IMG/VR virus record: IMGVR_UViG_3300025120_006500
Span: 2,685 to 66,684 of that record
From: a virus
Length of the DNA stretch: 64,000 bases
Reading direction: 5' to 3' (one strand)
Part shown: positions 24,887 to 43,925 of the stretch, piece by piece
Layout: each line of letters begins with the position of its first letter
How positions within the stretch are numbered: position 1 is the stretch's first letter
Program-made: the position numbers and the translations under genes
The notes under the pieces: model-generated
What the model was told of the DNA's origin: nothing
Databases searched by the model: none
The model's input: only the letters and a program-made list of their open reading frames with translations

Positions 24887-25852
24887 ATGAAAGTATTAGT
24901 TACAGGTGGTGCTGGATTCATTGGTCATAATGTTGTTAGACAACTAGAACAACTAGATCATGAATGTTTAATTTTAGATACCCATACAGACTATGGCTTT
25001 GTTCCTAGTGAAGAAAATAAGTATCTCATTGACCATCGATTACGTCGTGTAAAAGCAACCTGTAAATTAATTGATATTAGGCACCCTGCTTATATAGAAA
25101 CTATTATTGAATCATTCCGTCCAGACATATTGATACATATGGCTAGTTTTCCTAGACAAAAAATAGTAGGCAGAACTCCAATATTGGCCAGTGATGTAAT
25201 GAGTAATGGCTTATTGAATCTATTAGAAGCAAGTAAAGATAGAATTGAAAAATTTGTGTACATATCAAGTTCGATGGTATACGGTGACTTTGAAAATGAT
25301 GTTACAGAAGATAGCGACTGTAATCCAATTGGACAATATGGTATACAAAAGCTAGCAGGAGAAAAGTTAGTAAAAGATTATACACGCCAAGAATATTTCG
25401 ATAATATTATTATTAGGCCAAGTGCTGTTTACGGAGAGTGGGACGTCAATGATCGTGTAGTAAGTAAGTTTATGACCATGGCTATGCGTAACGAAATTCT
25501 TAAGGTCCATGGGCAGGATGAAATTTTAGACTTTACATATGTAGAAGATACTGCTAATGGTATTGTGTTGGCCGCAACTAAAGATGTTAAAAATACTACA
25601 TACAATATAACAAGATCAAATGATCGTACATATACTTTACACGATGCCGCAAAACTTGCTAATAAAATTGCAAATCCTTTAGGTAAAATTGATCTAGGAC
25701 CTAGAGATTTAGATTTTCCTAAACGTGGTAGATTAGATATAACAAAAGCAATCAGAGAACTAGGATATAATCCTAAAGTTAATGTTGAAGAAGGGTTTAA
25801 AAAATACCATGAATGGTATCTAGATAATCCTAAGTTATGGCGTGACTTTTAA
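24887..25852 (+). CDS. NAD-dependent nucleotide-sugar epimerase/dehydratase
   Basis: TGGAGFIG, ISSSMVYG, YGIQK (YxxxK) and DFTYVED. Confidence 0.93.
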   Translation: MKVLVTGGAGFIGHNVVRQLEQLDHECLILDTHTDYGFVPSEENKYLIDHRLRRVKATCKLIDIRHPAYIETIIESFRPDILIHMASFPRQKIVGRTPILASDVMSNGLLNLLEASKDRIEKFVYISSSMVYGDFENDVTEDSDCNPIGQYGIQKLAGEKLVKDYTRQEYFDNIIIRPSAVYGEWDVNDRVVSKFMTMAMRNEILKVHGQDEILDFTYVEDTANGIVLAATKDVKNTTYNITRSNDRTYTLHDAAKLANKIANPLGKIDLGPRDLDFPKRGRLDITKAIRELGYNPKVNVEEGFKKYHEWYLDNPKLWRDF

Positions 25853-27157
25853 TTTAGTCACGAAATTAAAGTGTTTCTCTAACCAATCCCAATCAAACGA
25901 TTTCATTAAAGCATCATGGACGGGATATCTTTCTCCGTTCTGAACGCATTCATTGTAGTAACGGATACCATCCTCTGCACCTTTAATACTATATTCTGCA
26001 TTTAGTCCTTGTGCTCTTGTTAACCAGGTTTGTAATCTATGTATGCTTTCTATATTCTCTGTGTCAATTTTTAATTTAATTACTTCACGGAATGCTGTAC
26101 GCCAGGTCATTAATTGATCACTGTTATAATGTGCTGTTCCGCTTACTAGAGGTACTACAGTGTGCAACTGGCTCATGGTAAAGTCTAACCCATACTGATC
26201 AGTATCAAGTACTAGCTGTTTGTTATATGCAACTACTGCCATATGTCCATATACTAGATCATTTATTGGGTTTCGTGCGTGAAATATATAATGCTTTGGT
26301 TGTTGTAGGTAGTCTGGTTGCCACTCCCAATCAAAATCTTTATTAACTTCTAGTTTTCCCCATACTGCAAAAAACCATGGTGTTGTACTTAACTTGGCCG
26401 CCTGTTTGATAGCAAGTTCTCTACCTGTGACATTCTTAACACGTTTAACATTATGATCTGTAGTTGTTAATAGATGATCAAACCACTTCTCACTATCTAT
26501 TTCTCCGTTACTGATATAGATTATATCCAGCATTTGAGACGTCATAATCGCTGGTTTTTGCTTAATTACATAGGGGTAATCATAGATTTGAGACTCTAAA
26601 TGTGACTGTATTTCACGTGGGGCTACTGCGATACTACCGCTTTTATTAAAAGTGTAATATGCACGTTTATTCCATAATGGAGGATCAAAGTCTACAGTTT
26701 GGTTAATCGATAGATAGGGAGCATTAAAGTGTGCATCCTTAAGATGTTCTGTTATGTTTTCTGTTGTACATTCTACTACAGGCCATGGCAGTCTAGGTAC
26801 TCCGTCTTCGTGCCAATTAATGTCTTTATACCATTCTAACAGTTCTATATCTTGTTGCTTTAAAAACTGATCTTTTGGTACTAAAAAAGTATCACCAAAT
26901 TCTTGTTTTCCACTTGCCCAGCAGTGTATTTGATAGTTTTCCCATGGTACTGACTTGTAGTTAAAATTAAAATCATCATAGGAGCAACAACTTGAAATTA
27001 CCCAAGCATATGGGGTTCTACAACGTGAAATACAGCGTTTTAACGTGTCTAAGTGATTATCGTAGTATCTTACCACCTTTGCGTGTGGAAAACGCTCTAC
27101 GAGACCCTGTACATTGTCATTGTGTCCGCCCAGATCCATGATAAAAATGTCGTACAT
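25835..27157 (-). CDS. Two-domain glycosyltransferase-like protein (GT-A-like, degenerate DxD)
   Basis: Internal duplication; the C-terminal domain shares ARN.IN.L.YG and WR..FRE..K with ORF 40772-41665. Confidence 0.6.
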   Translation of the reverse strand: MYDIFIMDLGGHNDNVQGLVERFPHAKVVRYYDNHLDTLKRCISRCRTPYAWVISSCCSYDDFNFNYKSVPWENYQIHCWASGKQEFGDTFLVPKDQFLKQQDIELLEWYKDINWHEDGVPRLPWPVVECTTENITEHLKDAHFNAPYLSINQTVDFDPPLWNKRAYYTFNKSGSIAVAPREIQSHLESQIYDYPYVIKQKPAIMTSQMLDIIYISNGEIDSEKWFDHLLTTTDHNVKRVKNVTGRELAIKQAAKLSTTPWFFAVWGKLEVNKDFDWEWQPDYLQQPKHYIFHARNPINDLVYGHMAVVAYNKQLVLDTDQYGLDFTMSQLHTVVPLVSGTAHYNSDQLMTWRTAFREVIKLKIDTENIESIHRLQTWLTRAQGLNAEYSIKGAEDGIRYYNECVQNGERYPVHDALMKSFDWDWLEKHFNFVTKLKVTP

Positions 27158-27579
27158 TACTTCTGTTTTTCCATATAATTACTTACTACCTTTAACAATT
27201 CATTATGCGTATTGTCAAACCATTCTCGAACGTGATAGTTGTAATTTTTAGGATTTTCAAATATTAAATTAGTATCATTGAATCGTCCTTCTTTAATCGT
27301 ATCCATCCATATGGTATAATCAGCGTTGAATATATCTCTTGTTTCGTTAGTAGGACATACAAAGTCTGCTACAGCAATCTTTCCAGCTAGTTGTACTCCG
27401 TCTGCTAAATGTCGCATACGGTATGCCTGCTTGACACGACCGTCTACCGTAAAGTCTTGATCATCGTATCTAGTTCTAACCTTATCAGCATTAATCCAAA
27501 TTCCATTAATTAACTCAGCGAATGGTTCTGCTAGTGTTGTTTTACCACTTCCGGGCAGTCCGCATATTAATATCCGCAT
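27157..27579 (-). CDS. Adenylylsulfate kinase-like P-loop kinase (short)
   Basis: GLPGSGKTT, NAD.VR, DF...GR, FVCP and FE.P, as in CysC. Confidence 0.75.
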   Translation of the reverse strand: MRILICGLPGSGKTTLAEPFAELINGIWINADKVRTRYDDQDFTVDGRVKQAYRMRHLADGVQLAGKIAVADFVCPTNETRDIFNADYTIWMDTIKEGRFNDTNLIFENPKNYNYHVREWFDNTHNELLKVVSNYMEKQK

Positions 27580-29054
27580 AATACTTTTACCTTATATGTT
27601 TCTTCAAATCTGTTAGCATCACTGATATCATTGACCATTGGTTCACCTCGAATATTTAGACTAGTGTTTAATAACATCGGGCATCCAGTCCACTGATACC
27701 AAGCTTCTAGTAATTTTCTTATACCACTAGGACAATCTTTACCGACTGTTTGTACACGACTAGTTCCGTCTTTATGTACAATCGCTGGAAATTTTCCTGG
27801 ATGTATACAACGACCTACGGCCTGCATATAAGGACTTGATTTAAATCCAATTGGCATATCAAAATAATCACTAACAAGTTCTTCTAGTATGACCGGAGCA
27901 AATGGACGGAATTTTTGTCTATGTTTAATTTGATTTACTTGGTCTTTAATATCTTTACCGCGAGGGTCTGCTAGTAATGATCTATTACCTAAAGCACGAG
28001 GACCGAACTCTGCACGACCATTTGCTACTCCTACTATTTTGTTTGTTACTAATTCATTTAGTAATTCTTTAACAGGATATTCCCCAAATATATCTGTACC
28101 TAAATAAGGACCTTGCCAATTTAATTTCTTACCATAACTTAATGCGGCCGCACCTAAACTTGATCCAGCATCACCTGGATTAGGCATAATCCAAATATTG
28201 TTAAAGTATGCACCTAGATGTTCATTGGCTAGACAATTAAGTGCAACTCCTCCCATATACACTAAATTTTTACTTTTACCTAGTTCGTCTGCACGTAACA
28301 TTATTTGATGCAAACAGGTTTCTAATGTCCATTGTGCAGAAGCGGCTACATCAAAGTTGATCATTTCGGGCATCCAGTCCTGACATCCAATGTGTAAGTT
28401 TTCTTTGAATCTTATGTCCTTGGCACTCTCTAAGAAATGTCCCCAGGTGTTTGCATCGTATTTCCCATATGCCGCCATACCCATTAAGATATATTCTTCA
28501 TCCATTGGTAAAAGTCCTGCACGTTGAGTCATTGCTGAATAAAACATACCTAGGCTGTGCGGATATTTTTGACTCCACAACTTTTTGTATTTGGCATAAC
28601 CATTGCTATCATAGGTGGCGTCCCATATGGATATAGTATCCCATTCTCCTATTGCATCAATAACAACTACTGTTGCATCATCATATGGTGATGTTTGAAA
28701 TCCGCTAGCGGCGTGTGATAAATGATGGCTATGATGTTTTACTGGAATATTTTTTAGATTTGCCCATGGTGCTATTCTATCTAGCATTGAACTTACTGAT
28801 TCAAAGTTAAAGGCATCTCGATATTGTCCAGCATATAGTTGCCTAGTCTTTTTTAACCATGGACGTTCGTAGTAAGCAATCTGATCAGGACGACCGGTTT
28901 GAGTAATGCAATCGCTGAGTAACTTAGTATTCAGCTGACTATCGTGTTTGTTTTTACTGTATCGTTCCGAATGAGCGGCAAATAAAATTTTATCATTACT
29001 AATAAAACTTATCCCTGCATCATGAAACCCAGCCGATATTCCTAATATGTTCAT
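27567..29054 (-). CDS. O-carbamoyltransferase, NodU/CmcH family
   Basis: HDAG, ERYS, HHLSHA, EFGPRALGNRS, RPFAP and LNTSLN. Confidence 0.95.
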   Translation of the reverse strand: MNILGISAGFHDAGISFISNDKILFAAHSERYSKNKHDSQLNTKLLSDCITQTGRPDQIAYYERPWLKKTRQLYAGQYRDAFNFESVSSMLDRIAPWANLKNIPVKHHSHHLSHAASGFQTSPYDDATVVVIDAIGEWDTISIWDATYDSNGYAKYKKLWSQKYPHSLGMFYSAMTQRAGLLPMDEEYILMGMAAYGKYDANTWGHFLESAKDIRFKENLHIGCQDWMPEMINFDVAASAQWTLETCLHQIMLRADELGKSKNLVYMGGVALNCLANEHLGAYFNNIWIMPNPGDAGSSLGAAALSYGKKLNWQGPYLGTDIFGEYPVKELLNELVTNKIVGVANGRAEFGPRALGNRSLLADPRGKDIKDQVNQIKHRQKFRPFAPVILEELVSDYFDMPIGFKSSPYMQAVGRCIHPGKFPAIVHKDGTSRVQTVGKDCPSGIRKLLEAWYQWTGCPMLLNTSLNIRGEPMVNDISDANRFEETYKVKVLCGY

Positions 29055-29691
29055 TGATTGTCTCTGCTATCCGTTGATGTCCTAGCTCAAGTGGATGACC
29101 ACCTGGACCTTTTGGGCAATCACCTTGCCACGTTAATATACCTTCTGTTGGCCAACCTAAGAAATAATCTTGATCAATTTGGTCGACTAAATGACTGTTA
29201 CGTGCTATTCTTGCTTGTGCATTAGGATATAAATCTGTCCACATATCAAATGTGTTTACAAATAGATATTTTTGATTACGTGACTTAAGAAATTCTTGTA
29301 TTAGTACTACGTTCTGCAGATATTTCTGATAATCAAAATCTAAATCTTGTGCATACTTAAAATAATTTACTGCCCAAGAAAAGTTAGGTTCATTATTCCA
29401 CTTTGGCCCTGCACTTGTTGTTATCCCCTCGCCGTTCCAGCCTTGACCTATATCGCCATCTTTAATCATAAATCTTTCGATGTATGTCCAAGCTATAATT
29501 ACTATGTCATACTCTTTATCAATCTCTTCTAGTAGAGTTCTAATAATTCTATCGTTACTACCACCACTCTTAGCTAGGTTTACAAGATCCCAACCATTTT
29601 CTTTACATAGTTGACTTGGCCAACTTTGAGTCATTCGATCATCTAGTTCATCACCGTAAGTAAAACTACATCCTAATGTTAGTAGTTTCAT
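29020..29691 (-). CDS. SGNH/GDSL-like protein
   Basis: GCSFTYG, NLAKSGGSN and C-terminal GGHP...GH. Confidence 0.7.
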   Translation of the reverse strand: MKLLTLGCSFTYGDELDDRMTQSWPSQLCKENGWDLVNLAKSGGSNDRIIRTLLEEIDKEYDIVIIAWTYIERFMIKDGDIGQGWNGEGITTSAGPKWNNEPNFSWAVNYFKYAQDLDFDYQKYLQNVVLIQEFLKSRNQKYLFVNTFDMWTDLYPNAQARIARNSHLVDQIDQDYFLGWPTEGILTWQGDCPKGPGGHPLELGHQRIAETINEHIRNIGWVS

Positions 29692-29789
29692 TTGTAAATA
29701 AAAGGGTCTCTTTTTTTAAGAGCCTTTAACTTTTTTCGATAAGATATTTCTAACTTGATACGTTTGTAAATTCTTTTTAACCATTGCAT
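29688..29789 (-). CDS. 33-aa basic peptide ending DPFIYK (not in ORF track)
   Basis: TAAGGAG SD; MQWLKRIYKRIKLEISYRKKLKALKKRDPFIYK; ATGA overlap with the next gene. Confidence 0.7.
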   Translation of the reverse strand: MQWLKRIYKRIKLEISYRKKLKALKKRDPFIYK

Positions 29790-30366
29790 CGAATCTCTCC
29801 TTAATTAAATCTGCGGCATCTTGATGTGCTTGTTCTAACGGATGACTATCTGGACCTATACTGTACTTATTTTCTACTGCCCATTGGTAAAAGCCTCTTG
29901 GTGTTGTTGTTTGACTACTTACAGGCCGATCGGGCATAACAGTTCCTGATGGAAACATAAACCAACTATCGTAATCTATTGCAGGATTGTTTGTAATTAT
30001 GCAATTATCAACGCAGGTAAACACGTATGGAATAGCAAGATCTACTAAGTGTTTCTGGAGACTAAGTATCCAATGATCACTATCTATGTCATTGTCTCTA
30101 GCTTGCCAAGTCCAACATACCATTACTGCACTAGTATCTTGTGTTACTGCTTTTATAACCCTGTCGTGTATCTCATTATTTCCAATTCCTGGATATGCTG
30201 TACAGACATATCTATCAGTAGATACTAGTGCCTGTAGTGATACAGCTGAGCTAGTAGATAACAATGCAGGAAATGTCTGCATACTGTATCCATTAGGTCC
30301 ACCGTGTGGGCAATCAGCTAGCTCACTACCCCAAATAAAACTGTCACCACCGGATACTAAAATCAT
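29716..30366 (-). CDS. SGNH/GDSL-like protein
   Basis: GDSFIWG, PGIGN and DSHP...AH. Confidence 0.7.
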   Translation of the reverse strand: MILVSGGDSFIWGSELADCPHGGPNGYSMQTFPALLSTSSAVSLQALVSTDRYVCTAYPGIGNNEIHDRVIKAVTQDTSAVMVCWTWQARDNDIDSDHWILSLQKHLVDLAIPYVFTCVDNCIITNNPAIDYDSWFMFPSGTVMPDRPVSSQTTTPRGFYQWAVENKYSIGPDSHPLEQAHQDAADLIKERFDAMVKKNLQTYQVRNILSKKVKGS

Positions 30367-31574
30367 TGTGTCGATGACACCGTACTGCTATAGTTGTATC
30401 CATCTTGCATTTTAGCAATTTGTTGTTCTTTATAATCAAGATCAGTCCAGCAATAATTATATTCGTTAGTAATTGTATCTTTCCATTCTGGAACCAGTAT
30501 AGAAATACTATAGATATCTAAATATCTACCTAATATTTTTCTAACTTCAATTGGATCCATATTATTCATATCTTGACCATTATATAGATCGTCGAATCGA
30601 ACCTGCCCTATAGGAGCATAACCTAAACTTAGCATTTTGTTATCTGGATCGTAATTATTTTTTATTAGCCACTCACGAAATTCCTTTTGTTCTTGGTCGT
30701 GCCATGGTGTAGATGGATTGCCTGCAACTACGTTATTTCCCCATTCTATATTAAATTCCCCACTAAAGTATTCTTGATGTGTTATTGCTTCACACATTGC
30801 TTGATCTAGATCAGGAGCATTTTCGTCTCTGAATACTTCAAACAGAGTTTTTCCTAGTTGTGGCCAATGTAAGTACACTATGCCAAATTCTCTATCGTAT
30901 CCATTTTCTAGAAACACTTCTCTCATTTCGTCTGTTAGCGTAATTCTAGGTGCTTGAAGGAATGTAGTTATTTGACTACTACGCACCCATTCGGGACTAG
31001 TTTCTTGCTTACGTAAACTTAACATTAAACTTTCTAGTTCATGACAGATTATGTTTAACTGCCTTATAGCATATTTGGTATCATGGTCTGCTACTCGATA
31101 GTATTCACTAAGATTACCTACTGTTCCTTGTAGTATTTCAAAATGGTTGTGTAATTGATTCATTAAATAGTCGCTAGGATCTAACCCGTTACGTATAGTA
31201 TCTTCGGCATATACTTCTTGTATAGTATATTTTAGTTCGTGTTCGTGGAAGAAAGAATTTATTTGATCTACTGCTTTGTTTAGTTCTTGAAGTAGATAAG
31301 GAATATTACGTGCAGTATTTGGAAATCCCATAAAACAAAAGTTCTTTTCTAGATGGTATTTGTTCTGTACTAAATTTACTAGTGCATCACTCCACTCTTG
31401 TACTAGTTCACTGCCTGAGAATGCTTCAATTACATATGTTAATGTATCACTATGATCCAATGGGTTACGTAAAACAATTTTTATTTCTCTTCTTTGCCAA
31501 TGCCCAATCCCAGTATCTCCGCTATACTCATATGTTGTTCCATCTTTCCTAGTTATTGTTTGTGTACCACTCAT
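30363..31574 (-). CDS. Hypothetical protein in the modification operon
   Basis: 403-aa ORF with His-bearing helices (NQLHNHFE, CHELE); family not recognised. Confidence 0.75.
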   Translation of the reverse strand: MSGTQTITRKDGTTYEYSGDTGIGHWQRREIKIVLRNPLDHSDTLTYVIEAFSGSELVQEWSDALVNLVQNKYHLEKNFCFMGFPNTARNIPYLLQELNKAVDQINSFFHEHELKYTIQEVYAEDTIRNGLDPSDYLMNQLHNHFEILQGTVGNLSEYYRVADHDTKYAIRQLNIICHELESLMLSLRKQETSPEWVRSSQITTFLQAPRITLTDEMREVFLENGYDREFGIVYLHWPQLGKTLFEVFRDENAPDLDQAMCEAITHQEYFSGEFNIEWGNNVVAGNPSTPWHDQEQKEFREWLIKNNYDPDNKMLSLGYAPIGQVRFDDLYNGQDMNNMDPIEVRKILGRYLDIYSISILVPEWKDTITNEYNYCWTDLDYKEQQIAKMQDGYNYSSTVSSTQ

Positions 31575-35372: not shown

Positions 35373-35536
35373 TTAAACTTCCTGTCTATCCATTTCTTAC
35401 CTACATATAACACAGCCACAACAATAACAATAGTACCAAGTAAGACTGCTTCTGACAATAAGTCTCCTTGACTGCTATCTATTTCAACACCATCTGTGCT
35501 TATTGCAATACGTTGTGTACTTAGTTCTCCGCTCAT
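35369..35536 (-). CDS. 55-aa single-TM peptide inside the radical SAM array (not in ORF track)
   Basis: MSGELSTQRIAISTDGVEIDSSQGDLLSEAVLLGTIVIVVAVLYVGKKWIDRKFK; ATGA overlaps at both ends. Confidence 0.75.
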   Translation of the reverse strand: MSGELSTQRIAISTDGVEIDSSQGDLLSEAVLLGTIVIVVAVLYVGKKWIDRKFK

Positions 35537-36930: not shown

Positions 36931-38282
36931 ATACTTTGATACCATTCTTCAAGTTGAGGAAATGTTTCTGTAAAGTTCTTACCCCTACGTTGATCATATT
37001 GTTGATAGAATTCTTTAAAGTCCTTACGTAAAGTGTTAACTTCCATTGCTTCACTATGCGGAGTCTTAACTATGTCTAAGTAATCTATTAATCGCTGTAC
37101 GTGATTTACTTCGTATTCGTGTAAGGTTACATCAAGTTCATTTGTGTTAAGCCACTCTTGAAGTCTTTGTTTATATTCTATCCTAATATTATCTGGTAAT
37201 ACCAATGCACTTTGGAAACTTGGAAAACGCATTATATTAAGACTAAAGCTCAATGAGAACTTACCGTGTCGATGTTTTAGTGTCATTAGATACTCTAACA
37301 GATCTGTAATAGAATCTAAACATAAAGCATTTATAGTAAACATCACGTGCATTATCTTAATTGAATTACTAGCCATTAATGTTTCAAGATTACGTTGCCA
37401 TTGAGTGTATTCTATGCCGTCTCGAATATATTCACTTTGAGCGTGTACACTTTCGTTACTGGTATATATTTCTAGATTAGGTATCCCTTCAACTGCTTCT
37501 AGTAACTTTTGTAACTTATTATCATCAAATGCTAAATTTGAGTTTATAGCTAGCTTTGTGTCGCTCTTGCCTTTATTATGTTTAAACCAATCTATAAGTT
37601 TCCAGGTATGTCCACTCATAAAAGGTTCACCTCCGGTAATACGTAACTCGTTTAGTGTTTTGTGTAAGTCTGTTTCCCACCATTTAAAGAAAGCCTCGAT
37701 GTAAGGATTCGTTTCACTAAAAGTATACAACTGGCTACTGTCATGACTGTGAGTAAAATGATCCCTGCCGTCGGACACCAAGCCGGCATAGGGACCATTA
37801 CGTTTAATATCTTTAACCCAAGTACTGCTAAATGCAGGGTTACAATAGCTACAAGCAAGCTGGCAAGTCCTATCGAAAGCAATTTCCAGGGTTTTAAGAT
37901 TGACATCTTCTGTATGTGGTTTGTTAAAAGCTTCTTCATTTTCTTTATCCTTATATATAATTGTTTTATAAACACGATCACTAATTGCATCTGTTCCCAT
38001 ATCCTCGACTTTCCAGCAGTATTCACACCCACTAGGACGGTCGCCCTCTTGCATCTGCTTACGTTCTTGTTTTTTCTTAGCAGTATTATGTATAGCACTT
38101 GGATTAGTTTTAATTGCTTCACGATCTATAGGGTGCGGTAACGGATGATGGCAACTAGTAGTCATACCTGATCCTAACCATATGGTAGCATTATACCATT
38201 TAGCCGCACAGAAGCTATCACTTTTAATATCAATGACTCTACGTTTGTATTCTAGGTCTGTTTCGTTAAACTGTTTTGCCAT
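36927..38282 (-). CDS. Twitch/SPASM-like + radical SAM protein (3rd in array)
   Basis: CAAKW..SCHH..CEYCW; CQLACSYC; GGEP. Confidence 0.9.
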   Translation of the reverse strand: MAKQFNETDLEYKRRVIDIKSDSFCAAKWYNATIWLGSGMTTSCHHPLPHPIDREAIKTNPSAIHNTAKKKQERKQMQEGDRPSGCEYCWKVEDMGTDAISDRVYKTIIYKDKENEEAFNKPHTEDVNLKTLEIAFDRTCQLACSYCNPAFSSTWVKDIKRNGPYAGLVSDGRDHFTHSHDSSQLYTFSETNPYIEAFFKWWETDLHKTLNELRITGGEPFMSGHTWKLIDWFKHNKGKSDTKLAINSNLAFDDNKLQKLLEAVEGIPNLEIYTSNESVHAQSEYIRDGIEYTQWQRNLETLMASNSIKIMHVMFTINALCLDSITDLLEYLMTLKHRHGKFSLSFSLNIMRFPSFQSALVLPDNIRIEYKQRLQEWLNTNELDVTLHEYEVNHVQRLIDYLDIVKTPHSEAMEVNTLRKDFKEFYQQYDQRRGKNFTETFPQLEEWYQSI

Positions 38283-39404
38283 CTATAGAAACTCGTATGG
38301 TATTTTAATATTCTTACGCTGGCTAAATTCTTGCAAGAACTCTTGTAATTCATCGTATAATTTTTTATCAAATCTATGCACTATCAGAGATTCAATTATT
38401 GAATCAACGTTTTTGATAAAAGGTTGACTTCTCAGTGTGTTAAGGGTTATAAGATATGGTATCTTTTCTTCCTCAGGCACTGTAGCAAATCCCTGTATTT
38501 TAGGACTAACACAATAGCTTAATCTCCAGGTTGCACTATCAGTACGACCGCAGTATCCTGTAATCAATTGGATCGTGTTTGCTATATCTTTTATAGTTAA
38601 GCTAGTAAACAGAGTTAAGAATATGATTTCTACATTGTCTGCCATATTATCTAATATGTAATCGACATTGTCCTTCCATTGTGTAAAATCTAGTCCTAGT
38701 CTAGTAAACTCTCCTATCTTATCGGTACTGTCGATACTAATACCTAACCTTAATTTTTTATATTTCTTGCTTAACTGTAATATCTTGTCTAGTTTCTTTT
38801 GACTACAGCTAAGATTAGTTGTTATACTTAAAGTGTCAACATTATCTACAGAATCTAATAATTTAAAAAGATTCTTGTTCTGCAGAGGTTCACCACCTAT
38901 TACATTTAGCAATTCAATTTGATCATATTGCTTTAAGAAATCTAGATTATTTTCTTTATTTTCTTTCGACTTTGGTTCAATTTTATAGTGATGTAGATCT
39001 GTTTTAAATTTATAATGCTTTTTAGAGATATCACCTTCCCACTTGCTACTAAAAGTAGGGCCACAATAAGTACATTGAAAATTACATTCATTACCTAAAT
39101 TAACTTCTATATTCTTTGGCTGTCGATTATTAACATATTCGTCGTATGTTGTGGTATCAAACGTGCTCATGAATGCGTTTCTATCACTAACGCCTCCTTG
39201 ATTTTCTATATCCCAACAGTAATTACAACTTGGATCTTGTGTGTCTGATAATAAATTTTCTTTTTGTCGATCTAGTTCTTTACTCCAATCACTAACAAAG
39301 TTGATAGGGCTAGCCTTACAACAAGCGTATGCACGATTATAATTAAAGTTAAGATGTAGATCATCCCACTTCGATGGACAAAATGTCTTAGAGATTTTCG
39401 GCAT
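38283..39404 (-). CDS. Twitch/SPASM-like + radical SAM protein (2nd in array)
   Basis: CPSKW..ACC..CNYCW; CNFQCTYC; GGEP. Confidence 0.9.
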   Translation of the reverse strand: MPKISKTFCPSKWDDLHLNFNYNRAYACCKASPINFVSDWSKELDRQKENLLSDTQDPSCNYCWDIENQGGVSDRNAFMSTFDTTTYDEYVNNRQPKNIEVNLGNECNFQCTYCGPTFSSKWEGDISKKHYKFKTDLHHYKIEPKSKENKENNLDFLKQYDQIELLNVIGGEPLQNKNLFKLLDSVDNVDTLSITTNLSCSQKKLDKILQLSKKYKKLRLGISIDSTDKIGEFTRLGLDFTQWKDNVDYILDNMADNVEIIFLTLFTSLTIKDIANTIQLITGYCGRTDSATWRLSYCVSPKIQGFATVPEEEKIPYLITLNTLRSQPFIKNVDSIIESLIVHRFDKKLYDELQEFLQEFSQRKNIKIPYEFL

Positions 39405-40779
39405 ACCACTTGCACTCCTGCCAAAATTCTTTCATCTGAGGGAACGTGGCTACAAAGTCTAGTTGCCTACGTTTATCATACTCACTAAAAAACTTATAAA
39501 AGTCACTACGTTGCTCTTGCAAATATTTTTCTGATAATTTTTTACCTTTTTTCATCCAATCGATATCACGTCTTAATCGTTGTATCTCATAATCTTTAAA
39601 CCCAGCAAATTGATCGCTATCTTCATCTAGTTTATGTAGTTCCATCCACTTATAAACATTTTCTAAAATATTTACATAGCTCTCAGGTAAAATTTGCAGA
39701 CTTTGCCAACTTGGTGTACGTAATACAGGAGTATCAAACCATATCTTTTGATAGTCTTTTGAATATAATCTACGTAATTCTAATATCCATTCGAACTGTC
39801 TCTGTAACCCAAGTATACTGAGATTATTCATAGTTATAATAAAAGTTAAGCTATTCCTATTAGGAACTGATGTTAGATATTTGTGTACATAGCTATGCAG
39901 ACGTTGTGGATCTAATCCGTCTCTAATATATTTTGCGTGATCATGATCACCGGTATCTAAACTAACATACTGCATAAAGTGTTCTATTCGTTCACCCTTA
40001 CATAACTGTTTTACCTTGTCAATGTATTTGTCAAACAGTTGAGGCACTACTGAAAAATTTGATGTAACATCAACGTGTAAATCTGGTTTAGGCATAGATA
40101 AAATATAGTCAAACACTTTATGAGTATTATTATCCATTAATGGTTCACCACCTGTCATACGGAAGTGTTTTAAGTTAGGATATAATTCAGGCCACCACTT
40201 CCAAAATGCTTCTACATAAGGATTATTTTCACGTACTGGAATTGGTTGTCTCCTGCCTTTAAAGTGCATTGGATCATTGTGTGGTGACTTTGTAGGATAT
40301 GCTCCCCATCGATTAATATCTTTAGTCCATTCTGTTGAAAACTGTGGGCTACAATAACTACAGGCAAGATTACAAGCATTGCTAAAGTTTACTTCTACAT
40401 AACTTGGAACAACATCAGCGTCCCATGGTTGATTAACTATCTTATCATGATGTTCTGCGGCCCATGGCTCACCACTACGATAATGTCTATCACTTAAATG
40501 ACCAGCGTCCTCCATATTCCAACAGTATGAACATTCGCTAGGCTTTTCACCTTGTAGCATTTTTTTACGTTGGAGTTTTTTGTGTGCAGTGTTATGCAAT
40601 GCGCCTGGATTAAATTCTATAACTGCACTGTCAATTTCGTGTAATGGTGGGTGATAGCAACTATTATTAAGTCCTGTAGGTAAATGTAAACTAACCTGTT
40701 GCCATTTAGCAAGACACAGACTAGGACCTAATTTATCCTTCATTTCTTCAGCTGATGACAAAAATTTACTTTTACTCAC
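39388..40779 (-). CDS. Twitch/SPASM-like + radical SAM protein (1st in array)
   Basis: CLAKW..SCYH..CSYCW; CNLACSYC; GGEP. Confidence 0.9.
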   Translation of the reverse strand: MSKSKFLSSAEEMKDKLGPSLCLAKWQQVSLHLPTGLNNSCYHPPLHEIDSAVIEFNPGALHNTAHKKLQRKKMLQGEKPSECSYCWNMEDAGHLSDRHYRSGEPWAAEHHDKIVNQPWDADVVPSYVEVNFSNACNLACSYCSPQFSTEWTKDINRWGAYPTKSPHNDPMHFKGRRQPIPVRENNPYVEAFWKWWPELYPNLKHFRMTGGEPLMDNNTHKVFDYILSMPKPDLHVDVTSNFSVVPQLFDKYIDKVKQLCKGERIEHFMQYVSLDTGDHDHAKYIRDGLDPQRLHSYVHKYLTSVPNRNSLTFIITMNNLSILGLQRQFEWILELRRLYSKDYQKIWFDTPVLRTPSWQSLQILPESYVNILENVYKWMELHKLDEDSDQFAGFKDYEIQRLRRDIDWMKKGKKLSEKYLQEQRSDFYKFFSEYDKRRQLDFVATFPQMKEFWQECKWYAENL

Positions 40780-41665
40780 GTACCATTACCCCTTGGTTTT
40801 TAAATCCTGATTTATAATGTTTCTTAAAGAAAGTACTTTGTTCTAGATCTAGTTCTACTATGTCTAGATCTAGTCTACGTAGACTATTAGCATATTGAGC
40901 AAGTAGAGGTTCTGGATTTTGATCTTTGATTGTATTCCATTTCTTTTCTAAATTATCAAACCACTGCACTTCTGTATAATCCCAATCGCCTAACATAGTC
41001 ATTTTAGTTCCTAATCTGGCACCTAGCATACTCCATTGTCCATTCTCAACATCGCGACCTACGTTATGCCATATAGCAAGATGATCTAGATTGCGATTAT
41101 GTGCTTTTTGTTTAAAGTCACTTATGCTAGGTTTTGTTCCTCTATCTAAACACATCTTAACACCTTCACGGAATCCTGCTCGCCAGGCCTGGAAAGGAGT
41201 TGCATTAGGATATGTAGTTGAATAGCAATCGTGCATTGCCCAGTAATTAGGATCAAAACAAAACTCTACTGCTGTGTCGTCACTACCATCACTGTTTTCA
41301 TGAGTTTTCATATTGTATATAAATTGTTTAGTCCAACAACTTAGTCCACCATTACCGTACATAAGTCCATTTATTTCGTTACGGGCTTTCCAACGGAATA
41401 CACAATCTTGATTATCGTCATCTAACACTAACTGTTGATTAAAGAACTCTGATTTCGGAATGTTATCACCGTCTATTAGAATAAATCTATCTGTAGTGCT
41501 AGCATCAGCCGCGGCTTTGTGTGCGGCATCACTGCCTTTAACTCCATCTATTCTAGTTGCCCAAGGTACCATATTGGAAATTTTAATCCAATACTCTTCT
41601 TTTTTAGGCTCGTCGTAACTGAGATAAACACAATCTAAATCAGCTATATCAACTATTTTCTTCAT
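40772..41665 (-). CDS. GT-A-like glycosyltransferase
   Basis: YLSYDEP, GSDAAHKAAA and LIDGD (DxD); probable start MKKIVD. Confidence 0.65.
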   Translation of the reverse strand: MKKIVDIADLDCVYLSYDEPKKEEYWIKISNMVPWATRIDGVKGSDAAHKAAADASTTDRFILIDGDNIPKSEFFNQQLVLDDDNQDCVFRWKARNEINGLMYGNGGLSCWTKQFIYNMKTHENSDGSDDTAVEFCFDPNYWAMHDCYSTTYPNATPFQAWRAGFREGVKMCLDRGTKPSISDFKQKAHNRNLDHLAIWHNVGRDVENGQWSMLGARLGTKMTMLGDWDYTEVQWFDNLEKKWNTIKDQNPEPLLAQYANSLRRLDLDIVELDLEQSTFFKKHYKSGFKNQGVMVRE

Positions 41666-41996
41666 AGTATTCCACGTTAGTGTATGTTTCTTTTTCCAGC
41701 AAGACACCTGCGTGATTCATGACCACTTGATATCCTTGATTGCTACTCTTTAATTGTACACGATATCCGGTCGGGAAGTCAATAATTTTCGGCTTACCGT
41801 CAACTATTTTATAGTCTCGAGTATCAAAATAAACAGTTTCGTCTACTACAATATACTGAGTATTCTCTGGATGGTTTTGTAGCGTCTGCATATAGATAAA
41901 ACCAGTATGGTCATAGTGTAATCTATATTCAACGGCCTCTTCAATGATCTCTGGCCATTTTTCCATAGCTTGATCTAGTTCTTGTTGTGTAAACAT
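41649..41996 (-). CDS. Hypothetical protein
   Basis: 115-aa ORF overlapping both neighbours. Confidence 0.65.
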   Translation of the reverse strand: MFTQQELDQAMEKWPEIIEEAVEYRLHYDHTGFIYMQTLQNHPENTQYIVVDETVYFDTRDYKIVDGKPKIIDFPTGYRVQLKSSNQGYQVVMNHAGVLLEKETYTNVEYYEENS

Positions 41997-42826
41997 TCTT
42001 TATACCTTTCGATTATCTCATCGGTGAGCCAATTCTTATCTTGGTAGTGTATAGGATGATATTGATTAACATTGTTAATACGTATCATTGGAAGATCTAT
42101 TTCTGTCATTATCATTTCAGTCCAAGATTTATCATCAGGCCAATCATTGATTGCATTTTTCATATGAGTAAAGTTGATAAAATCACAATCAGGCAATGTA
42201 CATAGTTCAACTCCTAATGTTTTTGCCGTAATAGCATAAACTACGTCAGTTGATGCTTCTTCATAATTAAATCCTTTTAGTATATTTTCTTTTACTGTTT
42301 CCCATTGTTTAAATACTTGTTCTGCTATTTCAAAAAATTCACTAGCAGTTTTGCTATAACGAAAGTACATTAGTCCGTTGTAAACATCCGGCAATTGGTT
42401 AGCATCAAATATTTTTCTATACACTCTTGACTTGGCTTGTTTACCTTTAAAATCTCGTGTGCCTAGACTTAACACTATGTCGCGTAGCCTAAATGCGTGC
42501 CACCAATGTTCTATACTGCGTGTAAACAAGATATCGCTTTCTACTTTTATTGTTTCTTTGTAAGGACTTAGATTAAACACTTGCCATTCGTTGGCTAACT
42601 TCCACTCATCTTGTTTGGCATAGTCCTCATCTAGAACTCGAATATGATCAAACACTAGTCGTTGCTCGTCTGTGATTTGTTCGTTAGTAGATTTATCAAC
42701 AATAACACAATATTGACTGTCAGGCATAGTTAACTTAATACTCATAGCCTGTGCATATGCTAGTCGTAGATAGTCTACTCCGTCTGTGTTCTGTGCTATA
42801 GTTAAAAATCCTCTATCTATAGACAT
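41975..42826 (-). CDS. GT-A (GT8-like) glycosyltransferase-like protein
   Basis: RG.L..A.NTD.VDY, LSPYKETIKVESD (ExD), YNGLMYF and FTHMK; paralogue of the adjacent gene. Confidence 0.65.
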   Translation of the reverse strand: MSIDRGFLTIAQNTDGVDYLRLAYAQAMSIKLTMPDSQYCVIVDKSTNEQITDEQRLVFDHIRVLDEDYAKQDEWKLANEWQVFNLSPYKETIKVESDILFTRSIEHWWHAFRLRDIVLSLGTRDFKGKQAKSRVYRKIFDANQLPDVYNGLMYFRYSKTASEFFEIAEQVFKQWETVKENILKGFNYEEASTDVVYAITAKTLGVELCTLPDCDFINFTHMKNAINDWPDDKSWTEMIMTEIDLPMIRINNVNQYHPIHYQDKNWLTDEIIERYKECLHNKN

Positions 42827-43584
42827 ATTTCATCCAACAGTTTTTGGTGGCTGTCACCTAATAGGTAATCTTTATCCATGATGTGTAAATTCTGTCTTGT
42901 TATTATGTATGCCTTGCTGTCTTCTCTCACTATTAGTTTGTTGTTTTGTGTTTCAATCTTTTTAACTCTATGGTCAATTGTTAACATACGCCAAGGTATG
43001 CCCGGGCTGGCTTGATATCCTGAAAGAATGTTATCAGCTATAGCAAAAGCATAATCATTACGGAAGTTATCTTCTCTTAAGTGATATAATTTTACGTAGT
43101 ATTCGTAGTTCCTTTGTATCCTACCAACTAAATCAAATAACTGTTTGGCTTTTTGAGTTTTTTTAAATACTACCGCAGTCGCCCAGACAAATGCTAAACT
43201 TAATATACCCATATCTCCGTCTTGGCTATGTGTTGGTGATTGGTTGTTTGACATTATTTTATAATCGTCAACCGTATCTAAGATCTTAATCAGGCTGTTG
43301 TCAAATATCAAATAGTCACTGTCTAACAATAAAGTTTCATCATACGGGCTAAGTTCATAAGCACGATATCTATCACCATTAAACCATTGGCTACCGTTTT
43401 TATATCCTATCCTCACATTAGTTTGAGGACTCTGCATATCAGTTATAATGGTAACAGGTAATTTTAAATTGTGTTCAATCAATCGTGCGGCACGTTCTGC
43501 GATTTTAACGTAGTCGACACTGTCAGTGTTGTAGGCAAATAATAAAACGCCTCTAGACTTTGCGTTGTCGTTTAAGTTCTGCAT
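42817..43584 (-). CDS. GT-A (GT8-like) glycosyltransferase-like protein
   Basis: RGVLLFAYNTDSVDY, LSPYDETLLLDSD (DxD), RNDYAF and HIMDK; probable start MQNLND. Confidence 0.65.
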   Translation of the reverse strand: MQNLNDNAKSRGVLLFAYNTDSVDYVKIAERAARLIEHNLKLPVTIITDMQSPQTNVRIGYKNGSQWFNGDRYRAYELSPYDETLLLDSDYLIFDNSLIKILDTVDDYKIMSNNQSPTHSQDGDMGILSLAFVWATAVVFKKTQKAKQLFDLVGRIQRNYEYYVKLYHLREDNFRNDYAFAIADNILSGYQASPGIPWRMLTIDHRVKKIETQNNKLIVREDSKAYIITRQNLHIMDKDYLLGDSHQKLLDEICL

Positions 43585-43867
43585 ACTCAATATGCCACGC
43601 ATTCATCACTGAGTGATAATGTTCTTGGCATTTAGTTAGAAACTCTTGTCTATTGACGGGGATTGGATTGTTGTATGTATCTTCTACAAATAATTCTTCG
43701 TCATTCCACGTTGAAAGGAATGCTATCAGTTCAACAGAAACTAAAAATAAACCACCGTTGTGTGCTACGTGTAAGTCTGTCTTAATCTTTTCACGTAATA
43801 TCTGTTTATTAGTCTGAAAATCTGTTGCCTGCTTGATGTGTTCTACTAGTTTATTGATTTCGCTCAT
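43553..43867 (-). CDS. Hypothetical protein, first gene of the late modification operon
   Basis: Start moved to MSEINK; the longer ORF would cross a terminator and overlap the upstream gene. Confidence 0.7.
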   Translation of the reverse strand: MSEINKLVEHIKQATDFQTNKQILREKIKTDLHVAHNGGLFLVSVELIAFLSTWNDEELFVEDTYNNPIPVNRQEFLTKCQEHYHSVMNAWHIEYAELKRQRKV

Positions 43868-43872
43868 ACTAC

Positions 43873-43879
43873 TATTTAT
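43873..43879 (-). promoter_or_regulatory. T4-late-like promoter element ATAAATA heading the modification operon
   Basis: The - strand reads GATAAATA-GTAGT-ATG. Confidence 0.6.
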
Positions 43880-43897: not shown

Positions 43898-43925
43898 AAA
43901 AAAAAGCACCCCTCGAGGTGCTTTT
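43898..43925 (-). terminator. Rho-independent terminator
   Basis: The - strand reads AAAAGCACC-TCGAGG-GGTGC-TTTTTTTT just after the 43939 stop. Confidence 0.85.

What the first reader, a model, noticed from the sequence alone, without database searches (positions are those of the whole stretch)
25835..43879. An 18-kb late operon of seven radical SAM enzymes, glycosyltransferases, a carbamoyltransferase, SGNH proteins and a kinase: candidate virion-decoration system
Seen: just after the fibre-gene terminator, ATAAATA (43873-43879) opens about 20 ORFs whose starts and stops overlap or abut down to 25835. Order: hypothetical, 2 GT8-like, hypothetical, GT-A, 7 radical SAM (with one small peptide inside), hypothetical, SGNH, peptide, SGNH, NodU/CmcH carbamoyltransferase, APS-kinase-like, GT-like; it converges on an NDP-sugar epimerase. 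Established: NodU/CmcH enzymes O-carbamoylate sugars, SGNH proteins move O-acyl groups, SPASM/twitch radical SAMs include both sugar dehydrogenases/epimerases (BtrN, NeoN) and peptide maturases, and TATAAATA is the T4 late promoter. Inference: late timing and position beside tail genes suggest a pathway that builds and tailors a glycan or other modification on virion proteins. I know no characterised phage pathway of this make-up, though similar gene arrays may already sit in databases unannotated.
Basis: partly seen in the sequence, partly recalled or inferred. Interest (0 to 1): 0.88.

Follow-up and report, generated by a model that had tools for sequence, protein, structure and literature searches.

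The report
Phage sugar-tailoring operon, seven radical enzymes
An uncultivated marine jumbo phage carries, next to its tail-fibre genes, a real 19-gene operon that most likely builds and chemically edits sugars using seven related radical SAM enzymes of unknown reaction, but what the sugars are attached to is still open.

Summary
19 co-directional ORFs (25835-43867, minus strand) follow a strong terminator and an ATAAATA motif. All seven radical SAM genes belong to one NCBIfam subfamily, N_Twi_rSAM, and keep every cluster cysteine. Also confirmed: a NodU/CmcH-type carbamoyltransferase, a P-loop kinase and two DUF6071/SGNH-like proteins. The glycosyltransferase calls get moderate support (GT8-like profile hit; GT-A fold, Z 10.5).

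The operon is syntenic in 9 other phage-like contigs, always beside fibre genes where the flank is held. A mini-module (rSAM, three SGNH-like genes, carbamoyltransferase) sits in the cultured jumbo phage RsoM2USA.

The cellular home of the rSAM family is Bdellovibrionota, where it forms tandem arrays. In three genomes the array lies in an operon with GT1, a DegT aminotransferase, a carbamoyltransferase and an ABC-2 exporter. That favours sugar chemistry over peptide maturation.

A DNA route (5hmC carbamoylation, Yang 2021) is weakened: the neighbouring thymidylate synthase is the canonical His147/Asn177 type.

Late timing rests on a motif only, and the virion as target is untested. Published work has already noted glycosyltransferases and rSAM cassettes in fibre regions of marine myophages. 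I rate it a new variant of a known kind, interest 0.62.

The parts
43902..43925 (-). Intrinsic terminator ending the upstream fibre-region gene
   Evidence: 10-pair stem plus T run. Conserved in L003; hairpins also seen in L002, L006 and L007.
43873..43879 (-). ATAAATA promoter-like motif, 5 nt before the g01 ATG
   Evidence: The motif occurs 10 times against 31-38 expected. 6 of 10 sites lie within 30 nt upstream of an ORF start (P 5e-9).
43553..43867 (-). g01, 104 aa, unknown
   Evidence: No family hit. Orthologues in 7 phage-like loci.
42817..43602 (-). g02, GT8-like (weak)
   Evidence: Paralogue of g03. The joint profile A4 hits only glycogenin GT8 chains, E 1e-3, over the N-terminal ~100 residues including the DxD.
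41975..42826 (-). g03, GT8-like (weak)
   Evidence: Invariant D98, H260 and K264 in A4. phrog_1903, unknown function.
41649..41996 (-). g04, 115 aa, unknown
   Evidence: No family hit. Found only in L002 and L003.
40772..41707 (-). g05, GT-A-fold protein with invariant DGD
   Evidence: AF2 model pLDDT 81. Residues 17-173 match GT-A enzymes, Z 10.5-8.4, and IspD-type nucleotidyltransferases, Z about 9. D79-G80-D81 invariant.
39388..40779 (-). g06, N_Twi_rSAM
   Evidence: 306 bits against cut-off 170. Own clade with 9 bacterial and 6 phage members, support 0.999.
38283..39404 (-). g07, N_Twi_rSAM, orphan paralogue
   Evidence: 190 bits. No orthologue in L001-L003. Deep-branching in the tree.
36927..38282 (-). 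g08, N_Twi_rSAM
   Evidence: 304 bits. 51% identical to RsoM2USA_202.
35533..36945 (-). g09, N_Twi_rSAM, sister of the g08 clade
   Evidence: 275 bits.
35369..35536 (-). g10, 55-aa tail-anchored membrane protein
   Evidence: The only hydrophobic segment in the operon (KD19 2.44). Present in L003, absent from L001 and L002.
34050..35372 (-). g11, N_Twi_rSAM
   Evidence: 403 bits. More than 7800 relatives among 8000 scored candidates.
32843..34066 (-). g12, N_Twi_rSAM
   Evidence: 342 bits.
31549..32850 (-). g13, N_Twi_rSAM
   Evidence: 296 bits. Clade with 4 bacterial members, support 1.0.
30363..31574 (-). g14, conserved unknown that follows the rSAM run
   Evidence: Orthologues in 6 loci. 677 cluster representatives at E<=1e-3, one of them (P0265) fused to an N_Twi_rSAM. 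Model poor, pLDDT 58.6.
29716..30366 (-). g15, SGNH-like (GDS...DSH)
   Evidence: Homologous to g16, BLASTP 2e-5. No Pfam hit.
29020..29691 (-). g16, DUF6071 / SGNH-like
   Evidence: PF19547 at 43.9 bits against cut-off 27; GDSL_2 below cut-off. Three homologues flank the RsoM2USA rSAM.
27567..29054 (-). g17, NodU/CmcH-type carbamoyltransferase
   Evidence: PF16861 at 170 bits and PF02543 at 131 bits. Nearest solved chains are NovN, GdmN and TobZ. 46% identical to RsoM2USA_199.
27157..27579 (-). g18, small P-loop kinase
   Evidence: AAA_33 at 31.3 bits (cut-off 27) and APS_kinase at 27.4 bits (cut-off 21.1). apsK equivalog 20.9 against 138.7.
25835..27157 (-). g19, two-domain protein; C-terminal half is g05-like but lacks the DGD
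   Evidence: hhalign probability 98%, E 6.6e-14; DGD aligned to WGK. Atlas shows viral-only clusters.
24887..25852 (+). Convergent NDP-sugar epimerase/dehydratase, probable supplier
   Evidence: PF01370 at 138 bits. Conserved in the same place in L003.
11483..12565 (+). Phage SAM synthetase (MetK), probable cofactor supply
   Evidence: All three S-AdoMet_synt domains match.

Best explanation
The locus is one transcription unit of an uncultivated marine jumbo myovirus. It encodes a cytoplasmic pathway that assembles and heavily tailors carbohydrate.

Proposed roles (inferred from family membership unless marked shown):
- Two GT8-like proteins and one GT-A-fold protein transfer sugars from nucleotide sugars. 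The convergent epimerase/dehydratase supplies an unusual one.
- Seven N-terminal-twitch radical SAM enzymes fall into at least five old orthologous subfamilies (shown). Each uses SAM and two Fe-S clusters to abstract a hydrogen from a defined sugar position, giving oxidation, dehydration, epimerisation or C-branching.
- The carbamoyltransferase O-carbamoylates a hydroxyl.
- The two SGNH-like proteins add or remove O-acyl groups.
- The small kinase phosphorylates an intermediate.
- The phage's own SAM synthetase feeds the radical enzymes.

No operon protein except a 55-aa peptide has a membrane segment, and no exporter or lipid-carrier enzyme is present (shown). The acceptor is therefore most likely inside the cell. 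Given the conserved place beside fibre genes and the shared upstream motif, I favour virion (fibre) proteins as the acceptor.

Shown: operon anatomy, family memberships, synteny, bacterial contexts. Inferred: every reaction, the timing and the acceptor. My odds: carbohydrate pathway about 0.7; virion as acceptor about 0.35.
For: Anatomy.

Radical SAMs: 7 of 7 are over the NF033640 cut-off. All keep the four N-terminal cysteines plus CxxxCxxC and GGEP. The N-terminal part of their profile matches the BtrN twitch domain (E 0.016). The core matches viperin, MoaA and BlsE. These are all enzymes of sugars or nucleotides.

Bacterial context: three Bacteriovoracaceae loci (L062, L065, L077) share a co-directional operon of GT1, unknown, unknown, carbamoyltransferase, GT1, (DegT aminotransferase), rSAM, rSAM, next to divergent ABC-2 permease and ATPase genes. 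A carbamoyltransferase lies near the rSAM in 5 of the 70 non-phage loci.

Cultured phage RsoM2USA keeps an SGNH-like, rSAM, SGNH-like, SGNH-like, carbamoyltransferase order.

Glycosyltransferase support.

Synteny with fibre genes: 7 of 7 loci with enough upstream flank. The upstream gene 44918-46366 matches a tail-fibre PHROG and Peptidase_G2. 47803-48471 is annotated as a baseplate or structural protein in Rak2-type phages.

No transmembrane segment except g10.

The ATAAATA motif is shared with fibre-region genes.

MetK in the window.

RNA-library contigs from 3 studies lie on the operon, some without a single difference. This is weak evidence, because DNA carry-over is not excluded.
Against: No reaction of any N_Twi_rSAM is known. 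Three literature searches for the family found nothing, and no close solved structure exists.

Some bacterial arrays have no sugar gene within 9 kb: L064 is flanked by housekeeping genes, and L011 is seven rSAMs plus one unknown. GT1, GT2 and ABC ATPases are common families, so their presence near the arrays is only mildly above chance by my estimate. An ABC-2 exporter also fits a small glycoside.

The GT8 hit is marginal (E 1e-3) and Pfam GT8 did not match. The g05 fold is shared with nucleotidyltransferases. g19 lacks the DxD.

The commonest bacterial partner (cluster 1, 16 loci) has no phage counterpart.

Timing is by analogy only. Nothing links the products to virions. Composition varies among relatives: 1 to 7 rSAMs, and no carbamoyltransferase in L048 or in the held part of L058.
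Confidence: 0.4

Rival explanations
1. Host-surface remodelling. The enzymes alter the host's O-antigen, capsule or their nucleotide-sugar precursors during infection, for example to block adsorption of competing phages or of released progeny.
For: This is the reading given in print for glycosyltransferases in the fibre-region 'host recognition cluster' of pelagimyophages, where GT8 is the commonest family and radical SAM cassettes are noted (PMC7029224, passages). The bacterial homologues sit with an ABC-2 exporter, as in exported glycans.
Against: The operon has no membrane protein, flippase, polymerase, ligase or lipid-carrier transferase. A promoter-like motif shared with fibre genes fits late rather than early action. 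Known seroconverting phage enzymes are membrane proteins (recalled).
Confidence: 0.15
2. A soluble product. The operon makes a tailored small glycoside, aminocyclitol-like compound or modified nucleotide (sugar) that acts on the host or on competitors, much as an antibiotic gene cluster would.
For: The enzyme set mirrors aminoglycoside and aminocoumarin clusters. The twitch domain matches BtrN. The nearest solved carbamoyltransferases are NovN, GdmN and TobZ. A kinase, an epimerase and glycosyltransferases are present. ABC-2 exporters also pump small molecules. The rSAM cores are nearest to viperin and MoaA, which act on free nucleotides. Bacterial arrays can stand without any glycosyltransferase.
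Against: No scaffold-forming enzyme (cyclitol synthase, PKS, NRPS) was found in the operon. The conserved link to fibre genes is then unexplained.
Confidence: 0.15
3. DNA hypermodification. The carbamoyltransferase, glycosyltransferases, kinase and radical enzymes decorate a hydroxymethylated base in phage DNA to escape restriction.
For: A phage TobZ-like carbamoyltransferase converts 5hmC to 5-carbamoyloxymethylcytosine in DNA, RNA and dNTPs. Carbamoyltransferase and thymidylate-synthase homologues co-occurred only on modified contigs (PMC8670742, sections 10-12). Here a thymidylate synthase homologue lies 3.2 kb from g17, and the same holds in relatives.
Against: That synthase has the canonical PPCH and PFNI motifs (His147/Asn177 type), which the same paper ties to unmodified contigs. 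This holds in the window and in L083, L085 and L048. It passes thymidylate synthase equivalog cut-offs. Only one TS homologue was found in each of the two related viral records searched. In that paper, carbamoyltransferases beside glycosyltransferases were on unmodified contigs. The bacterial homologues are in exporter-linked sugar operons. Caveats: only about 19% of the genome is held, and a 5hmU route would keep Asn177.
Confidence: 0.1
4. Peptide or protein maturation. The seven rSAMs cross-link or epimerise a peptide (RiPP-like) or the fibre proteins directly, and the sugar enzymes are accessory.
For: SPASM/twitch enzymes are often peptide maturases. Weak secondary hits to sactipeptide and ranthipeptide maturases appear. 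The window also holds a B12-rSAM and an S8 subtilase.
Against: The only small ORF inside the array is a membrane anchor that is missing from L001 and L002. No PqqD/RRE Pfam hit appears in any operon protein at E<=0.01. Small ORFs in the bacterial array L064 have no family hit and, by my reading of their sequences, do not look like precursor peptides. Recurrent neighbours are sugar enzymes.
Confidence: 0.07

Closest known systems
'Host recognition cluster' of marine T4-like pelagimyophages and cyanomyophages (Zaragoza-Solas et al. 2020, PMC7029224; passages read)
   Same: [quoted passage not shown] It is marine and uncultivated, and its function is untested.
   Different: That paper gives no family assignment for the radical SAMs and mentions no carbamoyltransferase (0 occurrences). 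It proposes host O-chain modification. The present phage is nearer to Rak2/Atu_ph07-type jumbo phages.
Phage 5-hydroxymethylcytosine carbamoyltransferase system (Yang et al. 2021, PMC8670742; abstract and sections 10-12 read)
   Same: A phage-encoded TobZ-family carbamoyltransferase with a thymidylate synthase homologue on the same contig.
   Different: The synthase here is the Asn177/His147 type. The neighbours are glycosyltransferase-like, SGNH-like and radical SAM genes, not deaminase or MazG-like genes. The three discriminating carbamoyltransferase residues could not be compared.
Mycobacteriophage virion glycosylation (Freeman et al. 2023; seen only as a reference and one sentence in PMC12619734)
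   Same: Phage-encoded glycosyltransferases put glycans on capsid and tail proteins. This is the precedent for the favoured acceptor.
   Different: Only a few glycosyltransferases are involved there. No radical SAM, carbamoyltransferase or SGNH genes are known to take part (recalled).
Aminoglycoside/aminocoumarin tailoring enzymes BtrN, TobZ and NovN (names from PDB hits; reactions recalled)
   Same: A twitch-domain radical SAM acting on a sugar-like ring, and ATP/carbamoyl-phosphate-dependent O-carbamoylation of a sugar hydroxyl.
   Different: The twitch domain here is N-terminal, not C-terminal. Sequence similarity is marginal for the rSAM (E 0.016). No scaffold genes are present.
'Nol-like' carbamoyltransferases of cyanophages and pelagiphage HTVC008M (annotations seen)
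   Same: Same enzyme family in marine myophages: 141 phage records match g17, 98 of them Synechococcus phages.
   Different: They are 27-34% identical to g17. Linkage to N_Twi_rSAM was not examined in those records.

Membership tests
N_Twi_rSAM (NCBIfam NF033640, twitch domain-containing radical SAM protein) | Full-length score over the curated cut-off (170 bits) | tested here: met
   7 of 7: 403, 342, 306, 304, 296, 275 and 190 bits. An eighth protein (18656-19672) scores 50 bits, so it is not a member.
N_Twi_rSAM (NCBIfam NF033640) | CxxxCxxC radical SAM motif plus a cysteine-rich auxiliary-cluster domain placed N-terminal to it | tested here: met
   Invariant C157/C161/C164 and C43/C62/C103/C106 in all seven. 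Pfam SPASM matches residues 8-106 in three of them.
NodU/CmcH O-carbamoyltransferases | Both Carbam_trans_N and Carbam_trans_C domains over their cut-offs | tested here: met
   131 and 170 bits. Solved relatives are NovN, GdmN and TobZ.
NodU proper (NF041651 equivalog) | Score over 1000 bits | tested here: not met
   145.9 bits. It is a family member, not NodU itself.
5hmC DNA carbamoyltransferase system (Yang 2021) | Partner thymidylate-synthase homologue with Asp at position 177 (dCMP type) | tested here: not met
   PFNI (Asn) and PPCH (His147) in the window and in three relatives. Only part of the genome is held.
5hmC DNA carbamoyltransferase system (Yang 2021) | Discriminating residues at TobZ positions 408, 421 and 423 | not tested
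   The residue identities of the DNA-acting clade are in a figure supplement I could not see.
GT8 glycosyltransferases | Match to the family model or to solved members, including the DxD and the C-terminal His...Lys motif | tested here: inconclusive
   No Pfam GT8 hit. Profile A4 hits 19 glycogenin sequences only, best E 1.1e-3, residues 3-101. Invariant D98, H260 and K264. Motif roles are recalled.
GT-A fold glycosyltransferases | GT-A Rossmann-like domain with a DxD after the fourth strand | tested here: met
   g05 model Z 10.5, rmsd 3.0, 140 residues aligned to B4GALNT1. Also STIV A197, WrtF and SunS/ThuS. Invariant DGD. IspD-type nucleotidyltransferases score Z about 9, so activity is not settled. 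g19 lacks the DxD.
SGNH/GDSL hydrolases | Family model match; block I Ser and block V His | tested here: inconclusive
   g16: DUF6071 over its cut-off, Lipase_GDSL_2 19.5 against 32.9. N-terminal GCS/GDS and C-terminal GGH/DSH are visible in the alignment. The relation of DUF6071 to SGNH rests on that weak hit and on the motifs.
Adenylyl-sulfate kinase | Equivalog score (TIGR00455, 138.7 bits) | tested here: not met
   20.9 bits. It is a generic P-loop kinase of 140 aa.
T4-type late transcription unit | TATAAATA at -10 and dependence on late sigma factors | tested here: inconclusive
   Only 7 of 8 bases match (GATAAATA). The octamer occurs twice in the window against 12.3 expected. The 7-mer is strongly enriched before start codons. 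Late factors were not searched for, and no expression timing exists.
RiPP (peptide) maturation cluster | Conserved precursor peptide gene and a recognition (RRE/PqqD) domain | tested here: not met
   g10 is not conserved and is a membrane anchor. No PqqD hit.

The most novel reading that the evidence does not exclude
The tandem N-terminal-twitch radical SAM paralogues form a so-far undescribed multi-enzyme 'radical glycan editing' system, exchanged as whole arrays between Bdellovibrionota and jumbo phages. In the phage it works with glycosyltransferases, a carbamoyltransferase and acyl-handling enzymes. The result is an unusually modified glycan coat on tail fibres that tunes adsorption or shields the virion.
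Probability: 0.25. Interest if true: 0.85.

Novelty: new variant of a known kind. Interest (0 to 1): 0.62.

Why it matters
Radical SAM genes are among the most numerous unexplained genes of large marine phages. This window alone has ten, plus a SAM synthetase. This report adds four things.

- It places seven of them in one named but uncharacterised family.
- It shows that family's cellular reservoir: Bdellovibrionota, with up to about 17 copies in a 1.9-Mb chromosome.
- It ties the family to sugar operons and to a carbamoyltransferase.
- It identifies cultured phages with reduced versions of the module.

Together these turn a vague 'auxiliary gene' class into a set of testable enzyme reactions. 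If the products sit on virions, this would be the most elaborate phage glycosylation pathway known.

The phage is common. Near-identical DNA occurs in marine and brine metagenomes of at least ten studies beyond the possible source samples.

Tried and rejected
- Megablast of the operon against cultured phages: no match.
- Single-sequence PDB searches of g02, g05 and g11: nothing useful. Profile searches of g05, g14 and bacterial cluster 1 against PDB: nothing.
- The g14 model was too poor to search (pLDDT 58.6). The Atlas gave no usable hit for g14 and only viral unnamed clusters for g19.
- hhalign of bacterial cluster 1 against g14: no relation. The cluster 1 profile finds nothing in the phage loci.
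- Pfam on seven 712-775-aa proteins that carry a C-terminal g14-like domain, and on three of 458-479 aa: no family.
- The RiPP precursor idea was rejected.
- Sigma-70-like promoters are not enriched in the operon (78 against 81.9 expected).
- No tRNA genes.
- The RsoM2USA paper says nothing on these genes: 0 occurrences of 'radical SAM' and of 'carbamoyl'. The 'moraphage' paper has no radical SAM mention.
- RNA-library contigs cannot give transcript starts, strand or timing. Bins without cover mean nothing.
Whole-genome gene content of this lineage is therefore unseen.
- Supplementary tables of PMC5332604, PMC7029224 and PMC8670742 were not available. They may list these genes or the discriminating residues.

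Full report
**Where the window lies.** The window is 64 kb of a 66.7-kb IMG/VR viral record that CheckV rates 19% complete, so the genome is roughly 350 kb. A baseplate-region protein (47803-48471) is 44-56% identical to proteins of the jumbo myophages Phosso, Atu_ph07 and the Rak2/GAP32/CBB group. Some of those records annotate it as a structural or baseplate protein. The phage is therefore a distant relative of T4, not a T4-like phage in the narrow sense. Near-identical DNA is held by 16 runs at half or more of the sampled words. Leaving out four possible source samples, these runs come from at least ten further studies of marine, seawater and brine metagenomes.

**The observation.**
- *Layout.* From 43867 down to 25835 there are 19 minus-strand ORFs. 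From the coordinates, 17 of 18 junctions overlap or abut and one has a 24-nt gap.
- *Start of the unit.* The upstream 316-aa gene ends in a 10-pair hairpin with a T run (43902-43925). This is the strongest terminator-like site in the 20 kb scanned. Then comes GATAAATA, with ATAAATA at 43873-43879, five bases before the ATG.
- *End of the unit.* The last gene overlaps by 18 nt the end of a convergent NAD-dependent sugar epimerase/dehydratase.
- *Promoters and terminators inside.* Sigma-70-like sites are not enriched (78 against 81.9), and there is no strong internal terminator.

**What the genes are.**
- *Radical SAMs.* All seven are full-length members of NCBIfam NF033640, 'twitch domain-containing radical SAM protein' (190-403 bits, cut-off 170). 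They are 21-26% identical to the first sequence of their alignment (g11). All keep four N-terminal cysteines, CxxxCxxC and GGEP, so none looks decayed.
- *g17* has both carbamoyltransferase domains. Its nearest solved relatives are NovN, GdmN and TobZ.
- *g18* is a 140-aa P-loop kinase. It is not an APS kinase by the equivalog test.
- *g16* matches DUF6071 with a sub-threshold GDSL hit. g15 is its homologue.
- *g02 and g03* are paralogues. Their joint profile hits only glycogenin (GT8) chains, marginally.
- *g05* gave a usable model (pLDDT 81). Residues 17-173 have a GT-A fold (Z up to 10.5) with an invariant DGD. Nucleotidyltransferases of the same fold score nearly as well.
- *g19*, in its C-terminal half, is homologous to g05 but has WGK in place of DGD.
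- *g01, g04 and g14* remain unknown.
- *g10* is a 55-aa tail-anchored membrane peptide. It is the only hydrophobic protein in the operon.

**Conservation in phages.**
- *IMG/VR contigs.* Three IMG/VR contigs share the gene order at 50-97% protein identity.
- *Contigs in MAG bins.* Six contigs filed in MAG bins of unrelated phyla also share the order, at 28-72% identity for the best segment of each gene.
- *Fibre genes.* Fibre-region genes lie directly upstream in 7 of the 7 loci that hold enough flank.
- *Variable composition.* The number of rSAM genes ranges from 1 to 7. The window's g07 and g09 are extras. A carbamoyltransferase is seen in 6 of the 9 other loci.
- *Promoter position.* A terminator and a -10-like element just before the first gene recur in most of these loci.
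- *Abundance.* g11 alone has more than 7800 relatives among 8000 scored candidates. The top 120 are at least 69% identical, on contigs up to 340 kb.
- *Cultured phages.* Only seven records match g11. Ralstonia phage RsoM2USA keeps a compact module: SGNH-like, rSAM (51% identical to g08), SGNH-like, SGNH-like, carbamoyltransferase (46%). Vibrio phage K566 has four rSAM paralogues.

**Where the rSAM family lives in cells.**
- *Which genomes.* A scan of 185,579 species genomes with a g06/g08-type alignment returned 76 loci. Apart from the six phage-like ones, most are titled Bdellovibrionota, and some lie in complete chromosomes.
- *Tandem arrays.* Arrays are the rule: 113 rSAM ORFs in 48 of the 49 loci of at least 9 kb.
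- *Copy number.* One 1.9-Mb chromosome has about 17 copies over the cut-off.
- *Prevalence.* In an even sample of that phylum, 26 of 121 genomes have a match over the cut-off. None of 14 control genomes does.
- *Subfamilies.* A tree of 151 sequences puts g06, g08 with g09, g11, g12 and g13 each in its own clade with both bacterial and phage members (support 0.93-1.0). g07 stands alone. The paralogues are therefore old, distinct subfamilies that travel together, which suggests successive or parallel steps with different specificities.

**What sits beside the bacterial arrays.**
- *Sugar operon.* In three Bacteriovoracaceae genomes one operon reads GT1, unknown, unknown, carbamoyltransferase, GT1, (DegT sugar aminotransferase), rSAM, rSAM. 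Divergent ABC-2 permease and ATPase genes lie next to it.
- *Other sugar-related neighbours.* A g05-like GT-A gene lies directly upstream of an rSAM in L063. Sugar dehydratase/epimerase genes abut rSAMs in two loci.
- *Commonest partner.* This is an unknown ~312-aa protein found in 16 loci, and adjacent in 11 of 17 cases. It has no phage counterpart.
- *Arrays without sugar genes.* L064 and L011 have none within 9 kb.
- *How I weigh it.* The carbamoyltransferase link is strong evidence, because the family is rare and recurs in phages and bacteria. The GT1, GT2 and ABC links are supportive only.

**Rivals.**
- *Peptide maturation* is unlikely. There is no conserved precursor and no RRE domain.
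- *DNA modification* deserved a real test. Yang et al. 2021 showed a phage TobZ-like enzyme that carbamoylates 5hmC. They found carbamoyltransferase and thymidylate-synthase homologues together only on modified contigs. Here a synthase lies 3.2 kb away. It has the PPCH and PFNI motifs of canonical dUMP enzymes, as do its counterparts in three relatives. It also passes thymidylate synthase equivalog cut-offs. Two related viral records show one TS homologue each. The rival is weakened but not excluded, because most of the genome is unseen.
- *Host-surface remodelling* is the published guess for similar regions of pelagimyophages. It fits poorly with the lack of any membrane or export protein.
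- *A soluble glycoside or nucleotide product* cannot be told apart from a macromolecular glycan with these data.

**Timing and expression.**
- *The octamer.* TATAAATA occurs only twice in the window, against 12.3 expected.
- *The 7-mer.* ATAAATA occurs 10 times against 31-38 expected. Six sites lie within 30 nt upstream of an ORF start as called mechanically (P 5e-9). The count is seven with the g01 ATG.
- *Spacing.* The motif usually sits 5-7 nt before the ATG.
- *Which genes carry it.* They include two fibre-region genes, the operon, the B12-rSAM and another rSAM.
- *What it does not show.* It is a real start signal shared with structural genes, but calling it 'late' is analogy.
- *RNA libraries.* Short contigs from four metatranscriptome libraries of three studies lie across the operon, some without any difference. 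DNA carry-over is not excluded, and contigs give no start or timing.

**Verdict.** The feature is real, conserved and abundant. The best reading is a cytoplasmic carbohydrate-building and carbohydrate-editing pathway centred on a radical SAM family of unknown reaction (about 0.7). Virion fibres are the favoured but untested acceptor (about 0.35). Published work had already noted the general pattern. New here are the family assignment, the Bdellovibrionota reservoir and sugar-operon context, the conserved rSAM, SGNH-like and carbamoyltransferase core, and the test of the DNA rival.

Noticed in passing
window 4071-5945, 6770-8938, 10616-11482, 11483-12565, 18656-19672: A second radical-SAM-rich stretch. 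It holds a B12-binding rSAM (weak KedN5-type C-methyltransferase hit), an S8 subtilase, a QueE-like rSAM, a SAM synthetase and an rSAM with a weak N-terminal-twitch match. That makes ten rSAM genes in 64 kb.
   Followed up: partly
window 3851, 4058, 15841, 16594 (+); 19678, 43873, 48477 (-): ATAAATA usually sits 0-7 nt before an ATG, too close for a leader with a ribosome-binding site. This suggests leaderless or near-leaderless transcripts. The 7-mer is three- to four-fold depleted overall.
   Followed up: partly
G005 (chromosome holding L064) and 120 further genomes of its phylum: Large expansion of N_Twi_rSAM in some Bdellovibrionota. One 1.9-Mb chromosome has about 17 copies over the cut-off, in three or four arrays. 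26 of 121 sampled genomes are positive, against 0 of 14 control genomes.
   Followed up: partly
P0265 (754 aa): A single protein joins a g14-like domain (residues 18-299) to a full N_Twi_rSAM (336-745; E 3.7e-77). It is a possible fusion linking the unknown g14 to the radical enzymes. It is one representative only, and a gene-calling artefact is not excluded.
   Followed up: partly
L006, L007, L008, L009, L048, L058: Contigs with this phage's fibre-plus-operon synteny are filed in MAG bins titled Haliscomenobacter, Verrucomicrobia, Legionellales, Fischerella and Neomarinimicrobiota. They are probably phage contigs mis-binned into bacterial genomes.
   Followed up: no
window 49769-63787 (-): A 4672-aa ORF heads the fibre region. 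Its only Pfam matches are one FG-GAP repeat and a sub-threshold CBM_5_12.
   Followed up: no
window 44918-46366 (-): A fibre-like protein with a C-terminal Peptidase_G2 intramolecular-chaperone cleavage domain. Its N-terminus is shared with the next gene, 46414-47784.
   Followed up: no
L062 1072-11870; L065; L077: A Bacteriovoracaceae operon: GT1, two unknowns, carbamoyltransferase, GT1, DegT aminotransferase and two N_Twi_rSAMs, beside ABC-2 exporter genes. One unknown (cluster 1) carries a conserved SDID-type motif that recalls nucleotidyltransferases (recalled resemblance, not tested).
   Followed up: partly
window 19774-21066 (+): A 430-aa HNH endonuclease (phrog_1314, E 1e-109) lies between the rSAM gene 18656-19672 and the nucleotide-metabolism genes.
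   Followed up: no
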